Part shown: positions 2,594-59,657 of the stretch, one piece after another
How positions within the stretch are numbered: position 1 is the first letter of the stretch
How the letters are laid out: each line of letters opens with the position of its first letter
NCBI GenBank assembly: GCA_041908445.1
Contig: JAYRFK010000110.1
Location: 1,567 to 65,566 of the forward strand
Reading direction: 5' to 3'
Source of the DNA: Acidimicrobiales bacterium
Lineage (GTDB): Bacteria > Actinomycetota > Acidimicrobiia > Acidimicrobiales > DATDAH01
Length of the DNA: 64,000 bases
Program-made: the position numbers and the translations under genes
Notes under the pieces: model-generated
Databases searched by the model: none
What the model was told of the DNA's origin: nothing
The model's input: the letters and a program-made list of their open reading frames with translations, nothing else

Positions 2594-4189
<1,596 letters not shown>

Positions 4190-8632: not shown

Positions 8633-9769
8633 TCAGGCCAGGGCGGCCAGCACGTGGTCGATGCTCTTGGTGAGCTGGGCCACGTCCTCGGGGTCGATGG
8701 CCGGGAAGAGTGCGATCCGCAGCTGGTTGCGGCCGAGCTTGCGGTAGCTCTCGGTGTCGTGGATGCCGTTGGCCCGCAGCACGCCGGCGACCACGTTGGC
8801 GTCGACCGAGTCGTCCAGGTCGACGGTGGCCACGACGTGGCTGCGCTCGGCGGGGTCGGACACGTACGGCGTGGTGAGCTCGCCGGCCTCGGCCCAGGCG
8901 TAGACGGTCTCGGCGGACCGGTCGCAGCGGCCGGCGGCGAACTCGAGGCCGCCGTTGTGGTTGATCCACTCGACCTGCTGGACGGCGAGGAACACCGTGG
9001 CCAGCGCCGGCGTGTTGTAGGTCTGGTCCTTGCGGCTGTTGTCCAGAGCGGTCTTGAGGTCGAGCGAGGCGGGGATCCAGCGGCCCGAGGCGGCGATGCG
9101 CTCGATGCGCTCGACCGCCGCGGGCGACACGGCGGCGAGCCAGAGGCCCCCGTCGGAGCCGAGGCACTTCTGGGGGGCGAAGTAGTAGACGTCGGTCTCG
9201 GCCGCGTCGAAGCGCAGGCCGCCGGCGGCCGAGGTGGCGTCCACGGCGACGAGGCCGTCGGCCGCCGTGGTGCCCTCGGGGCGTCGTGGCGTGTGCATGA
9301 CGCCGGTCGACGTCTCGTTGTGGGTGAGGGCGTAGACGTCGACGTCGGGGTTGGCATGGGCCTCGGGGTGGGTGCCGGTGGGCGACTCGATCACCTCGGG
9401 GTCACCGAGGTGGGGGGCGGCGGCGCACACGGTGGCGAACTTCGACGAGAACTCGCCGAACGACAGGTGCTGGCTGCGGTGCTCGACGAGGCCGAAGCTG
9501 AGAGCGTCCCAGAACGCCGTGGTGCCGCCGTTGCCGAGCATGACCTCGTAGCCGTCGGGCAGGCGGAGGAGCTCGGCGATGCCGTTGCGCAGGTTGGCGA
9601 CCACGGTCCGCACCCCGTCCTGGCGGTGGCTGGTGCCGAGGTAGGTCGGGGCGGCGGCGGCCAACGCCTCCACCGCCTCCTGGCGCACCTTGGAGGGGCC
9701 ACAGCAGAAGCGGCCGTCCGCGGGCAGGAGCTCGGCGGGGATGGTGATTTCTGGCAGCGCGGGACTCAT
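8633..9769 (-). CDS. serC: phosphoserine aminotransferase (actinobacterial type)
   Basis: Sequence [10 protein letters not shown]...[11 protein letters not shown]...[16 protein letters not shown] resembles mycobacterial-type SerC. Confidence 0.88.
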
Positions 9770-9867
9770 CGCGTGCCACTATCGCGGCAGGGCCGCAGCC
9801 GAGCGAATCGGTATCGGCGCGCCGCCCGCCCGCCGCCCGTGACCACCCCACCCCCGAAGGACCCCGC

Positions 9868-11076
9868 ATGACCTCCAGTGCCCGCGACGTCCGCCTCAGC
9901 ACCCGGGTCGGCGCCATCGCCGAGTCCGCCACGCTGGCGGTCGACGCCAAGGCCAAGGCCCTCAAGGCCGCCGGCGAGCCAGTGATCGGCTTCGGCGCCG
10001 GCGAGCCCGACTTCCCGACCCCCGCCCACATCGTCGAGGCCGCGGTCGAGGCCTGCCGCGACCCGAAGAACCACCGCTACACGCCCGCCGCCGGCCTCCC
10101 CGAGCTGCGCGAGGCGGTCGCAGCCAAGACCGAGCGCGACTCGAAGTACACGGTGGCGCCCGGCCAGGTGGTGATCACCAACGGGGGCAAGCAGGCGCTC
10201 TACGAGGCGTGCGAGGCCCTGCTCAACCCGGGCGACGAGGTGCTGTTGCCGGCGCCGTACTGGACGACCTATCCCGAGCCCATCGCCCTCTGCGGCGCGA
10301 GCTCCGTGATCATCCCCACCGACGTGCGCTCCGAGTTCAAGGTGTCGATCGATCAGCTCGACGCCGCCTTCACCGACCGCACCAAGGCCCTCATCTTCGT
10401 GTCGCCCTCGAACCCGAGCGGCGCCGTCTACTCGCCCGCCGAGGTCGAGGCCATCGGCCGCTGGGCCCTCGACAGGGGGATCTGGGTCATCTGCGACGAG
10501 ATCTACGAGCACCTCACCTTCGGCGACCACGTCTTCTCGTCGATGCCGGCGCTCGTGCCCGAGCTGGCCGACCGCTGCGTCGTGCTCAACGGCGTGGCCA
10601 AGAGCTACGCCATGACCGGGTGGCGGGTCGGGTGGCTCATCGGCCCCCCCGACATGGTCAAGCTGGCGGTGAACCTCCAGTCCCACCTCACGTCCAACGT
10701 GGCCAACGTCAGCCAGCGGGCCGCACTCGCCGCCGTCTCCGGCGACCTGTCGGCGGTGGCGGAGATGCGCGAGGCCTTCGCCCGCCGCGGGGCCACGATC
10801 CACCGGTTGCTCAACGCCATCGACGGGGTGTCGTGCATGGAGCCCCAGGGCGCGTTCTACGCCTACCCGTCCTTCGAGGGCGTGCTCGGCCGCGAGATCC
10901 GGGGCCAGCGCCCCCAGACCACCCTCGAGCTGGCCGCGCTCATCCTCGACGAGGCCAAGGTCGCCATCGTCCCCGGCGAGGCCTTCGGCACGCCCGGCTA
11001 CTGCCGGCTGTCGTTCGCCCTCGGCGACGACGACCTCGGCGAGGGCGTCGGCCGCATCGCCGACCTCCTCGCATGA
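9868..11076 (+). CDS. class I PLP-dependent aminotransferase (aspartate aminotransferase-like)
   Basis: [15 protein letters not shown] and the [13 protein letters not shown] lysine motif. Confidence 0.88.
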
Positions 11077-19781: not shown

Positions 19782-19825
19782 CTGGCTCCCGATTCGACCG
19801 TCCTGGCGGTCGAATCGGGAGCCAG
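19782..19825. repeat. 19-bp perfect-stem hairpin after leuA (family B palindromic element, probable terminator)
   Basis: CTGGCTCCCGATTCGACCG-TCCTGG-CGGTCGAATCGGGAGCCAG. It shares the core GGCTCCCGATT..CG and the loop TCCTGG with the hairpin at 30560-30603. Confidence 0.75.
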
Positions 19826-25858: not shown

Positions 25859-25903
25859 GGATTTCTTGGTGAGAAACCCCCGTATCGGGGGTTTCTCACC
25901 AAG
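25859..25903. repeat. family A palindromic element (copy 1, inverted relative to copies 2 and 3); probable leuCD terminator
   Basis: GGATTTCTTGGTGAGAAACCCCCG-TAT-CGGGGGTTTCTCACCAAG. Near-identical elements lie at 56619-56664 and 59611-59657. Confidence 0.85.
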
Positions 25904-30559: not shown

Positions 30560-30603
30560 CTGGCTCCCGATTTCGGTGTCCTGGCACCGAAATCGGGAGC
30601 CGG
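30560..30603. repeat. family B palindromic element (copy 2) between convergent ppx and a hydrolase gene
   Basis: CTGGCTCCCGATTTCGGTG-TCCTGG-CACCGAAATCGGGAGCCGG. Same loop and core as 19782-19825. Confidence 0.75.
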
Positions 30604-38229: not shown

Positions 38230-39576
38230 GTGACCCCCCGAGTGCCCCGTGTCCGCTTCGCGCCCGCGCCCACCGGCTCGCTGCACGTCGGCAGCGCCCG
38301 TTCGGCGCTGTTCAACTGGCTCTACGCCCGGGCGGTCGGCGGCACCATGGTCCTGCGCATCGAGGACACCGACACCGAGCGCAACAAGCCCGAGCTCATC
38401 GAGGGCATCCTGCGCTCGCTCGAGTGGCTGGGCATCGACTGGGACGAGGGGCCGATCCACCAGTCCGACCGCTTCGAGCTGTACCGGGAGGCCGCCGGCC
38501 GTCTCCTCGCCGAGGGTCGGGCCTACCTCGTCGACGCCGACGACCAGCAGGTCGAGGGCGACCAGCTCACCGCCGGCCTGGCCGTGCGGTTCCGGGTGCC
38601 CGACGAGGGCGCCATCGAGTTCGACGACGTCATCCGGGGCCACGTCCGCTTCGAGAACGAGAACGTCGAGGACCCGGTCATTTGGCGCTCGAACGGCACC
38701 CCCACGTTCCTCATCGCCAACGCGGTGGACGATGTCGACCTCGACATCACCCACGTGATCCGCGGCGAGGACCTGCTGTCGTCCACCCCGAAGGTCATCC
38801 ACCTGCGGGTCGCGCTCGGCCACACCGAGCTGCCCGTCTACGCGCACCTGCCCCTGCTGGTGAACGCGCAGCGCCAGAAGCTCTCGAAGCGCCGTGACGA
38901 CGTCGCCCTCTGGGACTACCGCGACAAGGGCTACCTGCCCGAGGCCATGGCCAACTACCTGGCCCTGCTGGGCTGGGGCCCGCCCGACGGGGTCGAGGTG
39001 CGGCCGATGGGCGAGATCATCGAGCGCTTCCGCCTCGAGGACATCACGAAGTCCGCGGCGTTCTTCGACCTGAAGAAGCTCGACCACGTGAACGGGGAGT
39101 GGATGCGGGGCCTGGCCGTGGAGGACTTCATCGGCCGCTGCGGGCCCACCCTCGCCGAGGGCCCCTGGAAGGCCGAAGACTTCGACCCGGCGGCCTTCGC
39201 CGAGCTCGCCCCGCTCGTGCAGGAGCGGGTCACCACCCTCGGCGACGTCCCCGACTACGTCGACTGGCTGTTCCTCGCCGAGGCCCCGATCGACGAGGCG
39301 TCGTGGGAGAAGGCCATGGTCAAGGGCCCCGACGCCGCCGGGATGCTCGACGACGCCATCGCCGCCTTCGCCGACGTCGAGTGGACCGCCGAGGCGCTCC
39401 ACGCGTGCCTGCTGGGGCTCGGCGAGGCCCGGGGCCTCAAGCTGGGCAAGGCCCAGGCGCCCGTGCGGGTCTCGGTCACCGGCCGCACCGTGGGCCCGCC
39501 CCTGTTCGAGTCGCTCGTGGTGTTCGGCCGTGAGCGCACGCTCGAACGCCTGAGGGCGGCCCGCGCCCGGCTGTGA
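38230..39576 (+). CDS. gltX: glutamyl-tRNA synthetase
   Basis: RFAPAPTGSLHVGSARSALFNW (HIGH-type) and KLSKRR (KMSKS-type). Followed by tRNA-Gln and tRNA-Glu, as in other actinobacteria. Confidence 0.92.
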   Translation: MTPRVPRVRFAPAPTGSLHVGSARSALFNWLYARAVGGTMVLRIEDTDTERNKPELIEGILRSLEWLGIDWDEGPIHQSDRFELYREAAGRLLAEGRAYLVDADDQQVEGDQLTAGLAVRFRVPDEGAIEFDDVIRGHVRFENENVEDPVIWRSNGTPTFLIANAVDDVDLDITHVIRGEDLLSSTPKVIHLRVALGHTELPVYAHLPLLVNAQRQKLSKRRDDVALWDYRDKGYLPEAMANYLALLGWGPPDGVEVRPMGEIIERFRLEDITKSAAFFDLKKLDHVNGEWMRGLAVEDFIGRCGPTLAEGPWKAEDFDPAAFAELAPLVQERVTTLGDVPDYVDWLFLAEAPIDEASWEKAMVKGPDAAGMLDDAIAAFADVEWTAEALHACLLGLGEARGLKLGKAQAPVRVSVTGRTVGPPLFESLVVFGRERTLERLRAARARL

Positions 39577-40250
39577 GCCGGCGTTCCCAGCACCGAGCAC
39601 CGCGGTGGCTGCGGGTCACCGTCCGGGTGGTGGCGGCCGTCGCCGCCCTGCTCGCCCTCTACCTCGTCGTCACCTTCGCCCAGGTCTGGTGGACGTCGCG
39701 CCAGGACGACGCCGTGGACGCCCAGGCCATCGTGGTGCTGGGCGCGGCGCAGTACGACGGCACCCCGTCGCCCGTCTTCCGGGCCCGGCTCGACCACGCC
39801 CTCGAGCTGTACGAGCAGGGTCTCGCCCCGACCATCGTGGTGACGGGTGGCAACCAGCCCGGCGACCGCTTCACCGAGGCGAGCGCCGGTGCGAACTACC
39901 TCCTGGCCCACGGCGTGCCCGAGCAGGACATCCGGCGGGAGGTCGACGCCCACAACTCGTGGGAGTCGCTGGCGGCGGTCGCCCGCATCCTCGACGACGA
40001 GGGGGTGGACGAGGTCATCCTCGTCTCCGACCCCTACCACTCCTTCCGGGTCGGCCAGATCGCCCGTGAGCTGGGCATGACCCCGCACCTCTCTCCCACC
40101 CGGACCAGCCCCGCCAGCAGCTTCAGCGAGCTCCGGTCGATGGTGCGCGAGACGATGGCGGTGTCCATCGGGCGCTTCGTCGGCTACCGCCGCCTCGTCC
40201 GCATCGACGACGAGGTGGGCCGCATCCGGGAGGGTGTGGGCCGCAACTGA
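39573..40250 (+). CDS. DUF218 (YdcF/ElyC-like) domain protein
   Basis: N-terminal TM helix, then AIVVLGAAQYDGTPSPVFRARLDHALELYEQGLAPTIVVTGG, typical of DUF218. The GTG overlaps the gltX stop. Confidence 0.75.
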   Translation: MSRRSQHRAPRWLRVTVRVVAAVAALLALYLVVTFAQVWWTSRQDDAVDAQAIVVLGAAQYDGTPSPVFRARLDHALELYEQGLAPTIVVTGGNQPGDRFTEASAGANYLLAHGVPEQDIRREVDAHNSWESLAAVARILDDEGVDEVILVSDPYHSFRVGQIARELGMTPHLSPTRTSPASSFSELRSMVRETMAVSIGRFVGYRRLVRIDDEVGRIREGVGRN

Positions 40251-40319
40251 CCCGCCGGGTGGGTCCGGGTTCCGGTTTCGGAATCCGGCGCAGGAGCCGC
40301 TAACCTCGGGGGTTCCCGT

Positions 40320-40391
40320 TCGGGGGTGGTGTAATCGGCAACACAACTGGTTCTGGTCCAGTTATTGGGGGTTCGAGTCCTCCCCCCCGAG
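40320..40391 (+). tRNA. tRNA-Gln (anticodon CTG)
   Basis: Hand-folded cloverleaf: acceptor TCGGGGG/CCCCCGA (U1-A72), D stem GTGT/ACAC, anticodon arm ACTGG-TTCTGGT-CCAGT, T arm GGGGG-TTCGAGT-CCTCC. CCA is not encoded. Confidence 0.9.
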
Positions 40392-40406
40392 CTTGACAAC
40401 TGATCT

Positions 40407-40479
40407 GGCCCCATCGTCTAGAGGCCTAGGACACCACCCTCTCAAGGTGGCGACACGGGTTCGAATCCCGTTGGGGCTG
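40407..40479 (+). tRNA. tRNA-Glu (anticodon CTC)
   Basis: Hand-folded: acceptor GGCCCCA/TGGGGCT, D arm GTCT-AGAGGCCTAGG-AC, anticodon arm CCACC-CTCTCAA-GGTGG, T arm ACGGG-TTCGAAT-CCCGT. It aligns with the canonical bacterial tRNA-Glu layout. Confidence 0.9.
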
Positions 40480-40485
40480 CAACAT

Positions 40486-40517
40486 GAACGGACCTGCGCT
40501 TCGGTGCGGGTCCGTTC
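40486..40517 (+). terminator. 14-bp hairpin with UUCG tetraloop directly after tRNA-Glu
   Basis: GAACGGACCTGCGC-TTCG-GTGCGGGTCCGTTC. Confidence 0.6.
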
Positions 40518-40548
40518 CGCGTCCCGCCGGAGCAGCGGCTTCGCCGCT

Positions 40549-40604
40549 GGACACCACGCCCGTCTGATGGTGGCGACACGGGTTCGAATCCCGTTGGGGC
40601 TGCA
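40549..40604 (+). repeat. tRNA-Glu-like partial copy 2 (3' part of tRNA-Glu with an 11-nt replacement of the anticodon loop)
   Basis: GGACACCAC-GCCCGTCTGAT-GGTGGCGACACGGGTTCGAATCCCGTTGGGGCTGCA. The 37 nt from GGTGG through the acceptor 3' strand to GCAA match the tRNA-Glu gene exactly. The upstream sequence does not form a good 5' acceptor strand. Confidence 0.8.
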
Positions 40605-40607
40605 ACT

Positions 40608-40637
40608 ACGAAGACCCTGCTTCGGCAGGGTCTTCGT
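40608..40637 (+). terminator. 13-bp perfect hairpin with UUCG tetraloop after tRNA-like copy 2
   Basis: ACGAAGACCCTGC-TTCG-GCAGGGTCTTCGT. Confidence 0.6.
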
Positions 40638-40674
40638 CGCGTCTGGGCCCGAGCCGTCGCCTGGCGGCGCCGGG

Positions 40675-40730
40675 GGACACCACGCTCGTCTGATGGTGGC
40701 GACACGGGTTCGAATCCCGTTGGGGCTGCA
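40675..40730 (+). repeat. tRNA-Glu-like partial copy 3
   Basis: GGACACCAC-GCTCGTCTGAT-GGTGGCGACACGGGTTCGAATCCCGTTGGGGCTGCA differs from copy 2 by one C/T. Upstream GGCCCGA could pair 6/7 with the 3' acceptor strand. Confidence 0.8.
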
Positions 40731-40733
40731 AGT

Positions 40734-40763
40734 GCGCTGACTTGCGGAAACGCAGGTCAGCGT
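40734..40763 (+). terminator. 13-bp hairpin with GAAA tetraloop after tRNA-like copy 3
   Basis: GCGCTGACTTGCG-GAAA-CGCAGGTCAGCGT. Confidence 0.6.
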
Positions 40764-40941
40764 CGCGTCCAGGGTCGGGTGGCGCACGTGTCGCTGGACC
40801 TGTCCGACGACGCCCGCCTCCGCGGACGGTCGACTGGCCGTAGCCCGGCCAGAACGCCAGGCGAGGACCAAGGGCGGCACGGCAGTGTCCCGCTCGAAGT
40901 CCCGCCGTGGAACCGCTCGCTCGATGCTGCCTCCCGCCGGA

Positions 40942-41112
40942 TCAGCCCTCGGGCCGGATGAACTCGTAGCGCCACCGCTCCGGTGGGCCGTCATCGACGA
41001 GGACGTACACGCCCCCGCGCTCCTCGATCTCGAGGGGTGGTGGATACCGGACGAGTCGACTTGTCGACGGTCCGCCATCGCAGGCAATCAGCATCCGGTC
41101 GCCGTCCTGCAC
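40942..41112 (-). CDS. small hypothetical protein (weak call)
   Basis: The ORF tail ...DGDRMLIACDGGPSTSRLVRYPPPLEIEERGGVYVLVDDGPPERWRYEFIRPEG has non-artefactual composition. The start is uncertain (GTG 41112 or ATG 41094). Confidence 0.2.
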   Translation of the reverse strand: MQDGDRMLIACDGGPSTSRLVRYPPPLEIEERGGVYVLVDDGPPERWRYEFIRPEG

Positions 41113-42339: not shown

Positions 42340-42355
42340 CGTTCAGGTGAACGCC
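42340..42355. repeat. 16-mer CGTTCAGGTGAACGCC (copy 1), flanking the HNH pseudogene
   Basis: Exact copies occur at 43083-43098 (direct) and 43055-43070 (inverted). Confidence 0.8.
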
Positions 42356-42365
42356 AGCGGCGACG

Positions 42366-42969
42366 TCAGCTCAGGGGGTTGCCGCTGTTGAGGACGGCGA
42401 TGGTGAAGGAGAGGTCGTCGGGGCGGAGGGGGTGCCGTCCCTGTCGCAGAGGATGATGTCGGGGCCGATGTGGAGTTGGCGGAGCTGGTTGGTGGTGGGG
42501 AGGTCGGGCCCGGTGGGTGGGTTGGGGGTGGTGTCGGTGAGGGGTGCTCTGCCGGGGCGGTGGATGATGACCTCGCCAAGAGGAGCTCGACGCGGTAGCC
42601 GGCTTCGTGGACGAGGCGGTGGTGGAACGGGCAGAGGGTGAGGAGGCTGTCGAGGTGGTTGGGGCCGTTGTGGGCGCGGTGGACGCTGTGGTGGGCGTGG
42701 ACCTTGCCGGTGCTGCCGCAGCCGGGGATGCGGCAGCAGCTGTGGTCTCGGGCGGCGAGGTCGCGGCGGAGCCGGGGTGGGAGGGACGAGGCGGCGTTGG
42801 TGGTGGCGGGGGAGAGGTTGGCGGAGCCGTCGAGGTGGCAGGCGCCCTCCGCGTCGTGGTCGAGGGTGTCGGCGTCGACGTGCACGACCACGGTCGCAGG
42901 AGTGGGAGTGGTGCCGGCGCAGATGGCGACGAGGGCGTCGGCCTGGCGGGCGGCGGTGGTGACAGGCAT
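42366..42969 (-). pseudogene. truncated and frameshifted DUF222/HNH endonuclease (REP13E12-type) pseudogene
   Basis: The HNH core RDHSCCRIPGCGSTGKVHAHHSVHRAHNGPNHLDSLLTLCPFHHRLVHEAGY is intact. The expected C-terminal part is split over two other frames (…IIHRPGRAPL…, …DLSFTIAVL…) and most of the N-terminal DUF222 region is absent. Confidence 0.7.
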
Positions 42970-53952: not shown

Positions 53953-53982
53953 CGGTGCCCGCGGCGCAGGCCGCGGGCACCG
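53953..53982. terminator. 12-bp perfect hairpin between the convergent thiolase and nfuA-like genes
   Basis: CGGTGCCCGCGG-CGCAGG-CCGCGGGCACCG. Confidence 0.45.
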
Positions 53983-54022
53983 TCGCGTCCGGGCGACGGC
54001 GCGCCGCGCCGCGGCCCGACGC

Positions 54023-56618: not shown

Positions 56619-56664
56619 GTGGTGAGAAACCCCCGATACGGGGGTTTCTCACCAAGAAATCCGG
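56619..56664. repeat. family A palindromic element (copy 2), between convergent genes
   Basis: GTGGTGAGAAACCCCCG-ATA-CGGGGGTTTCTCACCAAGAAATCCGG. Confidence 0.85.
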
Positions 56665-59610: not shown

Positions 59611-59657
59611 CCTGGTGAGAAACCCCCGATCCGGGGGTTTCTCAACAAGAAATCCGG
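59611..59657. repeat. family A palindromic element (copy 3), between convergent genes
   Basis: CCTGGTGAGAAACCCCCG-ATC-CGGGGGTTTCTCAACAAGAAATCCGG (one stem mismatch). Confidence 0.85.

What the first reader, a model, noticed from the sequence alone, without database searches (positions are those of the whole stretch)
40407..40768. Array of tRNA-Glu plus two tRNA-Glu 3'-part copies, each with an enlarged anticodon loop and its own tetraloop hairpin
After the intact tRNA-Glu(CTC) there are two further modules with periods of about 120 and 126 nt. Each module contains GGACACCAC, then an 11-nt GC(C/T)CGTCTGAT in place of the 8-nt CCTCTCAA, then 37 nt identical to the tRNA: the 3' anticodon stem, variable region, T-arm, 3' acceptor strand and GCAA. 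The two copies differ from each other by one nucleotide. Their 5' parts, however, have diverged almost beyond recognition. Copy 3 keeps GGCCCGA, which pairs 6/7 with the acceptor; copy 2 does not. Each of the three units is followed by a different-sequence hairpin of the same design: a 13-14-bp stem closed by a UUCG, UUCG or GAAA tetraloop, then CGCGTC. Perfect conservation of one half, decay of the other half, and structure-preserving divergence of the hairpins are not what neutral pseudogene decay gives. Three options remain. One is stacked att-site scars of integrative elements targeting the tRNA-Glu 3' end. Another is gene conversion from the live tRNA. A third is transcribed tRNA-like RNA modules, reminiscent of the tyrT-distal repeats (rtT RNA) of E. 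coli, which also reiterate a tRNA 3' end. The locus sits directly downstream of gltX.
Basis: partly seen in the sequence, partly recalled or inferred. Interest (0 to 1): 0.7.

Follow-up and report, generated by a model that had tools for sequence, protein, structure and literature searches.

The report
Tandem array of truncated tRNA-Glu copies
Behind a normal tRNA-Glu gene in an uncultured Acidimicrobiales bacterium lie two truncated copies of that gene, each with a disabled anticodon loop and its own terminator-like hairpin; related genomes carry zero to four such units, which points to a recombination-driven repeat array at a hotspot for integrating elements rather than to new tRNA genes, although one conserved part of the copies is still unexplained.

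Summary
After tRNA-Glu(CTC) (40407-40479) come two 123/126-nt units. Each holds a 57-nt block: GGACACCAC, an 11-nt loop, then 37 nt identical to the tRNA 3' part. Each is followed by a 12-14-bp hairpin and CGCGTC. ARAGORN and Rfam call neither unit a tRNA.

Relatives change the interpretation. The "decayed 5' halves" are not tRNA 5' halves. They are the native spacer that follows the tRNA terminator, and it also occurs without any module (L054). So the unit is tRNA position ~25 to the 3' end, plus hairpin, plus spacer, repeated in tandem. Copy number runs from 0 to 3-4, even within one species-level group.

In L057 a 7.2-kb integrase element sits in the live tRNA. Its true attR begins at the anticodon loop (CTCTCAA), and the module array lies beyond it. 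The modules are therefore not simple att scars. L057 modules also carry that lineage's own tRNA variants, which shows concerted evolution with the live gene.

Best reading (confidence about 0.5): a recombination-driven array of partial pseudo-tRNA copies, kept uniform by exchange with the live tRNA, at an integration hotspot. The conserved GGACACCAC plus 11-nt loop is not explained by this. A functional RNA or DNA role stays open (about 0.2).

The parts
38230..39576 (+). gltX (glutamyl-tRNA synthetase); context only
   Evidence: Pfam tRNA-synt_1c 8e-78 and Anticodon_2
39573..40250 (+). DUF218/YdcF gene between gltX and the tRNAs; used as the anchor to fetch relatives
   Evidence: Pfam DUF218 7.6e-30; homologues named YdcF family, Acidimicrobiales
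40320..40392 (+). tRNA-Gln(CTG)
   Evidence: ARAGORN; Rfam tRNA 57.2 bits
40407..40482 (+). Live tRNA-Glu(CTC). Mature end G73 at 40479, trailer CAA at 40480-40482. It is the first repeat of the array.
   Evidence: ARAGORN; Rfam tRNA 60.3 bits; identical 76/76 in all relatives that carry GGTGGCGAC
40486..40517 (+). Hairpin H1: 14-bp stem, UUCG loop, terminator-like, no U tract
   Evidence: RNAfold -27.0 kcal/mol, z -4.9; no U-tract terminator called
40518..40548 (+). CGCGTC (40518-40523) plus spacer S' of unit 2, which contains its own 7-bp UUCG hairpin CAGCGGC/GCCGCTG
   Evidence: Sequence; alignment with other units
40549..40605 (+). Module 2 core: GGACACCAC + loop GCCCGTCTGAT + 37 nt identical to the tRNA-Glu 3' part including CAA
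   Evidence: not called a tRNA
40608..40637 (+). Hairpin H2: 13-bp perfect stem, UUCG loop
   Evidence: (I3)
40638..40674 (+). CGCGTC (40638-40643) plus spacer S' of unit 3. Its stretch GAGCCGTCGCCTGGCGGCGCC is identical to the spacer in L024; the first 19 nt (GAGCCGTCGCCTGGCGGCG) are identical in L054.
40675..40731 (+). Module 3 core: GGACACCAC + loop GCTCGTCTGAT + 37 nt identical to the tRNA-Glu 3' part including CAA
   Evidence: best Rfam match is tRNA-Sec at 21.5 bits against a gathering score of 47
40735..40769 (+). Hairpin H3 (12-bp stem 40735-40746/40751-40762, GAAA loop), then CGCGTC (40764-40769); right end of the array
   Evidence: (I7). The tail beyond has no significant similarity to a module.

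Best explanation
This is a copy-number-variable tandem array of truncated tRNA-Glu gene copies, that is, pseudo-tRNA modules.

The repeat unit of about 122-126 bp has three parts:
- tRNA-Glu from about position 25 (GGAC) to 3 nt past its 3' end;
- the terminator-like hairpin plus CGCGTC;
- about 25-35 nt of native downstream spacer (S').
The live tRNA gene supplies the first copy of the repeat.

Shown:
- S' is ordinary flank DNA, not a tRNA 5' half.
- Arrays end in hairpin + S', with or without a truncated module. The window's own tail keeps only hairpin + CGCGTC.
- Units are gained and lost among close relatives. Adjacent units with identical hairpins occur in L024 and L057, as expected from recent unequal crossing-over.
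- Modules track lineage-specific changes of the resident tRNA.
- Integrating elements use the live tRNA's anticodon loop, and the array lies outside them.

Inferred:
- Recombination between the 37-40-nt repeated 3' halves (unequal crossing-over or gene conversion) adds and removes units and copies tRNA sequence into the modules.
- A crossover can make any module's 3' half part of the live tRNA, and any hairpin the tRNA's own hairpin. Both are therefore exposed to selection from time to time. This would keep the 3' halves perfect and the hairpins folded while hairpin sequence and spacer drift.
- The anticodon loop of the founder copy was enlarged from 8 to 11 nt. In L057 the loop G-CCT-G-CTC-G-A-T reads as CCTCTCAA with three inserted G and one substitution. 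The modules cannot act as tRNAs.
- On this reading the array has no function of its own beyond the hairpins.
For: - Unit anatomy and identity.
- No tRNA call for the modules.
- L054 has tRNA + hairpin + CGCGTC + S' and no module. The tails of L042, L024 and L054 match S' (z 3.5-9.2), and L057 ends in a module truncated after GGTGGAGACACGG.
- Copy number is 0 in L040, 1 in L025 and 3-4 in L024, although their DUF218 genes are 92-96% identical at 4-fold sites. L025 equals L023/L040 plus one 122-nt unit, with the old hairpin and flank displaced.
- Duplicated identical hairpins in L024 and L057.
- L057 modules share that lineage's tRNA variants, GGTGGAGAC and GCCAT.
- Mean pairwise identity is 0.95 for the 3' half, 0.64 for the spacer and 0.62 for the hairpins. 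Host 4-fold sites are 0.52-0.62 identical.
- All 14 hairpins fold at -23 to -32 kcal/mol despite different sequences.
- The same hairpin + CGCGTC design follows an unrelated gene at 53953-53989.
- This tRNA-Glu is an integration hotspot: two phage attP sites, a 7.2-kb element and integrase remnants.
Against: - GGGACACCAC (invariant) and the 11-nt loop (about 80% identical) have no donor in the live tRNA, yet they are conserved across lineages with near-saturated synonymous sites. Exchange with the tRNA cannot explain this.
- The window's three hairpins are only 49-63% identical to each other while the two modules differ by 1 nt in 57. The units are therefore old, or were acquired separately, and the homogenising force must act on a very sharply bounded block.
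- Four of the five changes seen in module 3' halves lie in the variable loop or the first T-stem pair. The T-arm never changes, which resembles RNA-level constraint.
- L025's new hairpin differs from the resident one, so that unit was not copied locally from an L040-like locus.
- Copy numbers come from short-read metagenome assemblies, and L024 contains one chimeric unit.
Confidence: 0.5

Rival explanations
1. Functional modules. The units are co-transcribed with the tRNA-Gln/tRNA-Glu operon and processed into tRNA-like RNAs: a GC hairpin, an anticodon-like arm with a conserved 11-nt loop, a T-arm and a 3' strand. Alternatively they act on DNA as conserved protein-binding sites, for example non-recombining attB look-alikes for anticodon-loop integrases. 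Selection on that role keeps the 57-nt block.
For: - GGGACACCAC and the 11-nt loop are conserved with no tRNA donor, across lineages with 0.52-0.62 identity at 4-fold sites.
- Changes in module 3' halves avoid the T-arm.
- The hairpins lack U tracts, so read-through into the modules is plausible.
- Both half-sites of the anticodon stem, the core of the phage attB, are retained.
Against: - There is no conserved acceptor stem or D-arm. RNAalifold finds only 2 pairs with double changes, none in a tRNA-like helix other than the invariant T-arm.
- Rfam scores are far below threshold.
- Modules are absent from many close relatives (L014, L019, L023, L040, L044, L059) and vary from 0 to 4 within one species-level group, so they are dispensable.
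- L042's module has a 9-nt loop and a mutated 3' half.
- There are no transcription data.
Confidence: 0.2
2. Stacked att-site scars. Each unit is what remains of a separate integration into tRNA-Glu. Each element brought its own perfect tRNA 3' half, its own terminator hairpin and CGCGTC, and pushed the earlier 3' end to the right. The element bodies were later deleted.
For: - The L057 element does supply a perfect 3' half, its own hairpin of the same family and CGCGTCTGAGGG.
- L025 differs from L023/L040 exactly as an insertion that displaces the old 3' half and old hairpin.
- The window's three hairpins all differ.
- Displaced tRNA fragments are the known signature of integration (PMC9897764; PMC4383910 abstract).
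Against: - A true attR (L057) and two phage attP sites start at the anticodon loop CTCTCAA. They lack GGACACCAC and the 11-nt loop.
- In L057 the modules lie outside the element, beyond its attR.
- Only 66-69 nt separate the copies in the window. No integrase was found among the neighbouring ORFs scanned, and tblastn with the L057 integrase finds nothing in the window.
- S' and the loop have no significant similarity to the arms of the elements seen.
- No viral contig carries the module or S'.
- S' occurs without a module as plain flank.
Confidence: 0.15
3. Miniature site-specific unit. The 122-nt unit (3' half, hairpin, CGCGTC, S', GGACACCAC, loop) is a tiny non-autonomous cassette. An integrase supplied in trans excises it and re-inserts it at the tRNA 3' half, in the manner of a minimal cis-mobilisable element. 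This would spread units between genomes.
For: - L025 carries one unit whose hairpin resembles L024's type, in an otherwise L040-like locus.
- Unit parts such as the 21-nt S' core are more alike between lineages than host synonymous sites.
- Several integrase lineages act at this tRNA.
Against: - Units are found only next to this one tRNA-Glu. No free or dispersed copies were found.
- Homologous recombination between the repeats gives the same products with no special enzyme.
- The integrases seen cross over in the anticodon loop, which the modules lack.
Confidence: 0.1

Closest known systems
tyrT-distal repeats and rtT RNA of E. coli (recalled from my own knowledge: Egan & Landy 1978; Bösl & Kersten 1991; not re-read here)
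   Same: Tandem units lie directly downstream of a live tRNA gene. Each unit repeats the 3' end of that tRNA. The origin is attributed to unequal crossing-over. The repeats sit within or behind the tRNA transcription unit.
   Different: - The tyrT units are 178 bp and repeat only about 19 nt of the tRNA. Here the units are 123-126 bp and repeat 46 nt: the anticodon stem, variable loop, T-arm and acceptor 3' strand.
- Here each unit also has an altered 11-nt loop and its own strong hairpin.
- There is no sequence relationship. No Rfam family other than sub-threshold tRNA-clan hits matched at E<=10.
- Transcription is untested here.
Displaced tRNA gene fragments (attR or attL) left by integrative elements and prophages in tRNA genes (Islander, PMC4383910; PMC9897764)
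   Same: A partial copy of the tRNA 3' part lies downstream of the intact gene. This tRNA-Glu is a proven target: the L057 element and the phage attP sites in L026 and L027.
   Different: - True fragments start at the crossover point, CTCTCAA in the anticodon loop, and are separated from the gene by an integrase-bearing element of several kb.
- The modules extend 9 nt further 5', have a non-tRNA 11-nt loop, sit 66-69 nt apart with nothing between them, and lie outside the element in L057.
Tandem tRNA gene duplicates and tRNA pseudogenes kept alike by gene conversion (general knowledge)
   Same: Concerted evolution with the functional copy. Copy number changes by unequal crossing-over.
   Different: - The duplicated segment starts inside the gene at about position 25, so no copy was ever a complete tRNA.
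- Homogenisation stops sharply at the anticodon loop.

Membership tests
Canonical bacterial tRNA gene | Cloverleaf with a 7-bp acceptor stem, a D-arm and a 7-nt anticodon loop, detected by ARAGORN or by Rfam RF00005 at or above 29 bits | tested here: not met
   Only 40320-40392 and 40407-40480 are called. The best module hits are tRNA-Sec at 21.5 bits (gathering score 47) and tmRNA at 19.8 bits (gathering score 47). The loop is 11 nt. No acceptor 5' strand is conserved.
att scar of a tRNA-targeting integrative element | The fragment begins at the integrase crossover sublocation and is otherwise identical to the tRNA | tested here: not met
   The true attR in L057 and the attP sites in L026/L027 begin at CTCTCAAGGTGG. 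The modules begin at GGACACCAC and have GCYCGTCTGAT in place of CCTCTCAA.
att scar of a tRNA-targeting integrative element | An element with an integrase, or its remnant, lies between the intact gene and the fragment | tested here: not met
   66 and 69 nt lie between the copies. They are filled by a hairpin, CGCGTC and the spacer. No integrase domain was found in the 10 neighbouring ORFs scanned, and tblastn with the L057 integrase finds nothing in the window.
tyrT-distal repeat / rtT-type locus | Tandem units downstream of a tRNA gene, each ending in a copy of the tRNA 3' end | tested here: met
   Three in-register copies at 123 and 126 nt spacing
tyrT-distal repeat / rtT-type locus | Sequence or structure homology to rtT RNA | tested here: not met
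   No such match among all Rfam families at E<=10
tyrT-distal repeat / rtT-type locus | Units are transcribed and processed into a discrete RNA | not testable with these tools
   No expression data. The hairpins lack U tracts, so read-through is possible.
Dispersed repeat (REP/BIME, MITE) | Many copies at unrelated loci | tested here: not met
   The module and S' occur only at this locus in the window. The GTDB scan gave only chance hits and the viral scans found no module or S'; the metagenome scan found only tRNA-Glu-linked arrays.
Tandem segmental duplication with concerted evolution | The unit includes native flank, the array ends in a partial unit, copy number is polymorphic, and copies track the changes of the master copy | tested here: met
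   S' is flank DNA in L054. The tails of L042, L024 and L057 are partial units. Copy number is 0, 1 and 3-4 in one species-level group. L057 modules share GGTGGAGAC and GCCAT with their tRNA.

The most novel reading that the evidence does not exclude
The 57-nt block is kept by selection for a role of its own. The conserved parts are the anticodon-like arm with its 11-nt loop GCYYGUCUGAU, the T-arm and the acceptor 3' strand. One possibility is that the modules are co-transcribed with the tRNA operon behind gltX and released as tRNA-half-like RNAs, acting as decoys or regulators for a tRNA-Glu-binding enzyme or an anticodon nuclease. Another is that they act on DNA as non-recombining look-alikes of the attB site used by the integrases that target this tRNA.
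Probability: 0.2. Interest if true: 0.7.

Novelty: new variant of a known kind. Interest (0 to 1): 0.4.

Why it matters
Partial tRNA copies are usually read as footprints of integrated elements. Here a true footprint and the module array lie side by side in one genome (L057) and can be told apart. The array shows how a live tRNA gene can act as the master copy of a small tandem repeat. It keeps truncated copies perfect over long periods while their spacers and hairpin sequences drift.

In practice, such arrays break short-read assemblies at tRNA genes. They can also be mistaken for att sites, islands or extra tRNAs.

If the conserved 11-nt loop turns out to be under selection, the locus would be a new class of tRNA-derived element linked to the gltX/tRNA-Glu operon.

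Tried and rejected
1. The module 5' part as a decayed tRNA 5' half. I first saw TCTGGGCCCGAGCCGTC as similar to TCTGGCCCCATCGTC. I rejected this because the same spacer follows the tRNA with no module in L054 and ends every array.

2. A fourth, decayed module at about 40793-40830 (repeat family D3). The alignment score is no better than for shuffled sequence, z 0.1-0.7.

3. S' and the 11-nt loop as remnants of integrase arm sites. By eye GGGACCCTTGCCCATGG looked similar. There is no significant similarity to the arms of the L057, L059 or L027 elements.

4. A donor element or phage that carries the module.
- The GTDB scan gave 2 chance hits inside genes.
- The viral scans gave one chance hit or none.
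- The metagenome scan found only chromosomal arrays.

5. A tRNA-like cloverleaf for the modules. RNAalifold gives a non-tRNA fold with a covariation term of +1.43 and only 2 doubly changed pairs. The short AGCC:GGCU acceptor-like pairing is not conserved.

6. A dispersed repeat (REP or MITE). There are no other copies.

7. U-tract terminators or sigma-70 promoters within 40100-41000. None were found.

8. The weak tmRNA and tRNA-Sec matches in Rfam. They are below threshold and driven by the T-arm.

Full report
**1. What is in the window**

The region reads as follows: gltX (38230-39576), a DUF218/YdcF gene (39573-40250), tRNA-Gln(CTG) at 40320-40392, tRNA-Glu(CTC) at 40407-40479, and then two further units.

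Each unit holds a 57-nt block made of GGACACCAC, an 11-nt loop (GCCCGTCTGAT or GCTCGTCTGAT) and 37 nt identical to the tRNA from GGTGG to GCTGCAA. The blocks lie at 40549-40605 and 40675-40731. Chance expectation for these repeats is zero. TRF reports a period of 126.

The tRNA and both modules are each followed by a strong hairpin. The stems are 14, 13 and 12 bp, the loops UUCG, UUCG and GAAA, the energies -25 to -27 kcal/mol and the z-scores -4.9 to -5.8. CGCGTC follows each hairpin.

ARAGORN and Rfam accept only the two real tRNAs. With relaxed thresholds the modules reach only 21.5 bits against tRNA-Sec and 19.8 bits against tmRNA, far below the gathering scores.

Three independent assemblies (L004, L007, L009) were compared base by base and show no difference over 900 nt. 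L005 and L006 have all repeat copies at the same positions. The array is therefore real.

**2. Whose genome**

The closest named homologues of the DUF218 protein come from Acidimicrobiales MAGs. One identical locus is in GCA_964500935.1.

**3. What relatives show**

I fetched the DNA downstream of DUF218 homologues and scanned public collections for the module.

*Modules present or absent*
- No module, only tRNA-Glu plus one hairpin: L014-L017, L019/L020/L023, L040, L044 and L059.
- One module: L025.
- Three to four modules: L024.
- One module plus a truncated one: L042 and L057.

L040, L025 and L024 have DUF218 genes that are 92-96% identical at 4-fold sites. Copy number therefore changes within a species-level group.

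L025 equals L023/L040 plus one 122-nt unit. The new hairpin sits next to the tRNA, and the old hairpin and the same flank now lie behind the module.

*The spacer is native flank*
L054 has tRNA-Glu, a hairpin, CGCGTC and the spacer CGGGGAGCCGTCGCCTGGCGGCG, but no module. The arrays of L042 and L024 end in hairpin + CGCGTC + this spacer (z 3.5-6.5). L042's tail runs on to GGGACAC. L057's tail runs on to GGTGGAGACACGG and then meets the flank.

The repeat unit is therefore tRNA from about position 25 to its end, plus hairpin, plus spacer. The live gene is the first repeat. This is the anatomy of a tandem segmental duplication whose left breakpoint lies inside the gene.

*Recent duplications*
In L024 and L057 adjacent units have identical hairpins. 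That is what recent unequal crossing-over produces.

**4. Integrating elements**

Two viral contigs carry an attP-like copy of this tRNA that starts exactly at the anticodon loop (CTCTCAAGGTGG...GGGGCTGC). An integrase gene follows it.

In L057 a 7.2-kb element with a tyrosine integrase and an inserted IS110 sits in the live tRNA. That integrase is 30-33% identical to the two phage integrases. The attR of the element begins at CTCTCAA. The module array lies to the right of that attR. The modules were therefore already part of the host locus before the element arrived, and they are not its scars.

The element supplies a perfect 3' half, its own hairpin of the same family, and CGCGTC.

Other signs of integration at this site:
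- integrase fragments behind the tRNA in L014, L054 and L059;
- GGTGCCA repeats like those next to the L026 attP, behind the tRNA in L058.

tRNA-Glu is thus an integration hotspot. This agrees with what is known about tRNA fragments at islands (PMC4383910 abstract; PMC9897764).

I found no element that carries the module or the spacer. I also found no similarity between the spacer or loop and the arms of the elements seen.

**5. Conservation**

The window, L042, L024/L025 and L057 are 0.52-0.62 identical at DUF218 4-fold sites, which is near saturation. Mean pairwise identity among seven distinct modules is as follows:

| Segment | Mean pairwise identity |
|---|---|
| 37-nt 3' half | 0.95 |
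| 11-nt loop | 0.80 |
| Spacer | 0.64 |
| Hairpins | 0.62 |

GGGACACCAC is invariant by eye. The aligner shifts L042, which lowers its computed value.

All 14 hairpins fold at -23 to -32 kcal/mol. A hairpin of the same design, also followed by CGCGTC, terminates an unrelated gene at 53953-53989. None has a U tract.

L057's tRNA differs from the window's at two places: GGTGGAGAC instead of GGTGGCGAC, and an encoded CCA. Its modules share both states. This is direct evidence that the modules evolve in concert with the resident tRNA.

**6. Mechanism I favour (confidence about 0.5)**

Recombination between the 37-40-nt repeats adds and deletes units. The gain and loss is shown; the mechanism is inferred. 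The same recombination copies tRNA sequence into the modules. The concerted evolution is shown; whether it runs by gene conversion or by unequal crossing-over is inferred.

A crossover can make any module 3' half part of the live gene, and any hairpin the tRNA's own hairpin. Selection on the tRNA and its 3' end therefore reaches all copies from time to time (inferred). This explains the perfect 3' halves and the folded but sequence-divergent hairpins without any function for the modules.

The enlarged loop looks like a mutated anticodon loop. In L057, G-CCT-G-CTC-G-A-T reads as CCTCTCAA with three inserted G and one change (my own reading of the sequence).

**7. What this does not explain**

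- GGGACACCAC and the 11-nt loop have no donor in the tRNA but are conserved across deep lineages.
- The window's hairpins are only 49-63% identical to each other, while its two modules differ by 1 nt in 57.
- Four of the five changes in module 3' halves fall in the variable loop or the first T-stem pair. The T-arm is never hit.

These points keep a functional reading open at about 0.2, either as an RNA or as a DNA site. Against it, no tRNA-like helix other than the invariant T-arm is supported, the modules are dispensable in many relatives, and L042's module is degraded.

The stacked-scar model (0.15) and a miniature mobile unit (0.1) remain possible but lack a donor element.

**8. Comparison and verdict**

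The closest analogue in architecture is the set of tyrT-distal repeats of E. coli. I cite these from memory; there is no Rfam homology. The closest in context are the displaced tRNA fragments at islands, but the defining features of those scars were tested here and are not met.

I class the finding as a new variant of a known kind, of moderate interest.

Caveat: all comparative data come from metagenome assemblies. Several of them break at this repeat (L010, L012, L034), and L024 contains one chimeric unit.

Noticed in passing
window 25870-25898, 56623-56651, 59616-59644: Three copies of a long perfect palindrome, TGAGAAACCCCCG-NNN-CGGGGGTTTCTCA, with arms up to 19 bp and 0 expected by chance. 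It looks like a REP-like dispersed hairpin family.
   Followed up: partly
window 19782-19825 and 30562-30601: Two related 17-19-bp palindromes that start GGCTCCCGATT and have the loop TCCTGG. This may be a second hairpin repeat family.
   Followed up: no
window 53953-53989: A 13-bp GC-rich hairpin after a stop codon, followed by TCGCGTCC. The design matches the tRNA-Glu hairpins. Hairpin + CGCGTC without a U tract may be the usual terminator style of this genome.
   Followed up: partly
window 42343-42969 (-): An ORF with an HNH-endonuclease-like motif (HHSVHRAHNGPNHLDSLLTLCPFHHRLVH), about 1.6 kb downstream of the array. A similar HNH gene flanks the array in L024.
   Followed up: no
L042 3790-3876; also L054, L059, L034, L024: In several relatives purT, on the opposite strand, lies between tRNA-Gln and tRNA-Glu. 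A decayed pseudo-tRNA-Gln (…AATCGGTAGCTTCTCGCTAGGATCTCGGGTCCTCGCCCGAGCT) sits just upstream of tRNA-Glu. This is a second partial tRNA duplication at the same locus.
   Followed up: partly
L057 7459-14735: A complete example of integration into tRNA-Glu. attL is the tRNA. The 7.2-kb element carries an IS110 transposase, a tyrosine integrase (9106-10254) and small ORFs. attR starts at the anticodon loop. The element brings its own hairpin + CGCGTC.
   Followed up: yes
L014 4032-4229 (-); L054 3954-4097 (-); L059 6193-6521: Fragments of tyrosine recombinase genes directly behind tRNA-Glu in three further lineages. The ...RLGHSSPQAALRYQH... C-terminus faces the tRNA. These are remnants of other integrated elements.
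   Followed up: partly
L024 unit 2 (reverse-complement orientation, about 3398-3539); contig ends of L010, L012, L034: One L024 unit has a chimeric junction, GGGTTC|CAAGGTGG, that joins a module to tRNA sequence. Three contigs stop inside or right at the tRNA-Glu 3' half. Short-read assemblies break or mis-join at this repeat, so copy numbers are approximate.
   Followed up: no
window 40251-40319 and the equivalent region in relatives: The DUF218-to-tRNA-Gln spacer keeps a conserved core, CCGGTTTCGGAATC...GAGCCGCTAACCTCGG, across diverged lineages. It is probably the promoter of the tRNA operon. It does not match the sigma-70 consensus scan.
   Followed up: no
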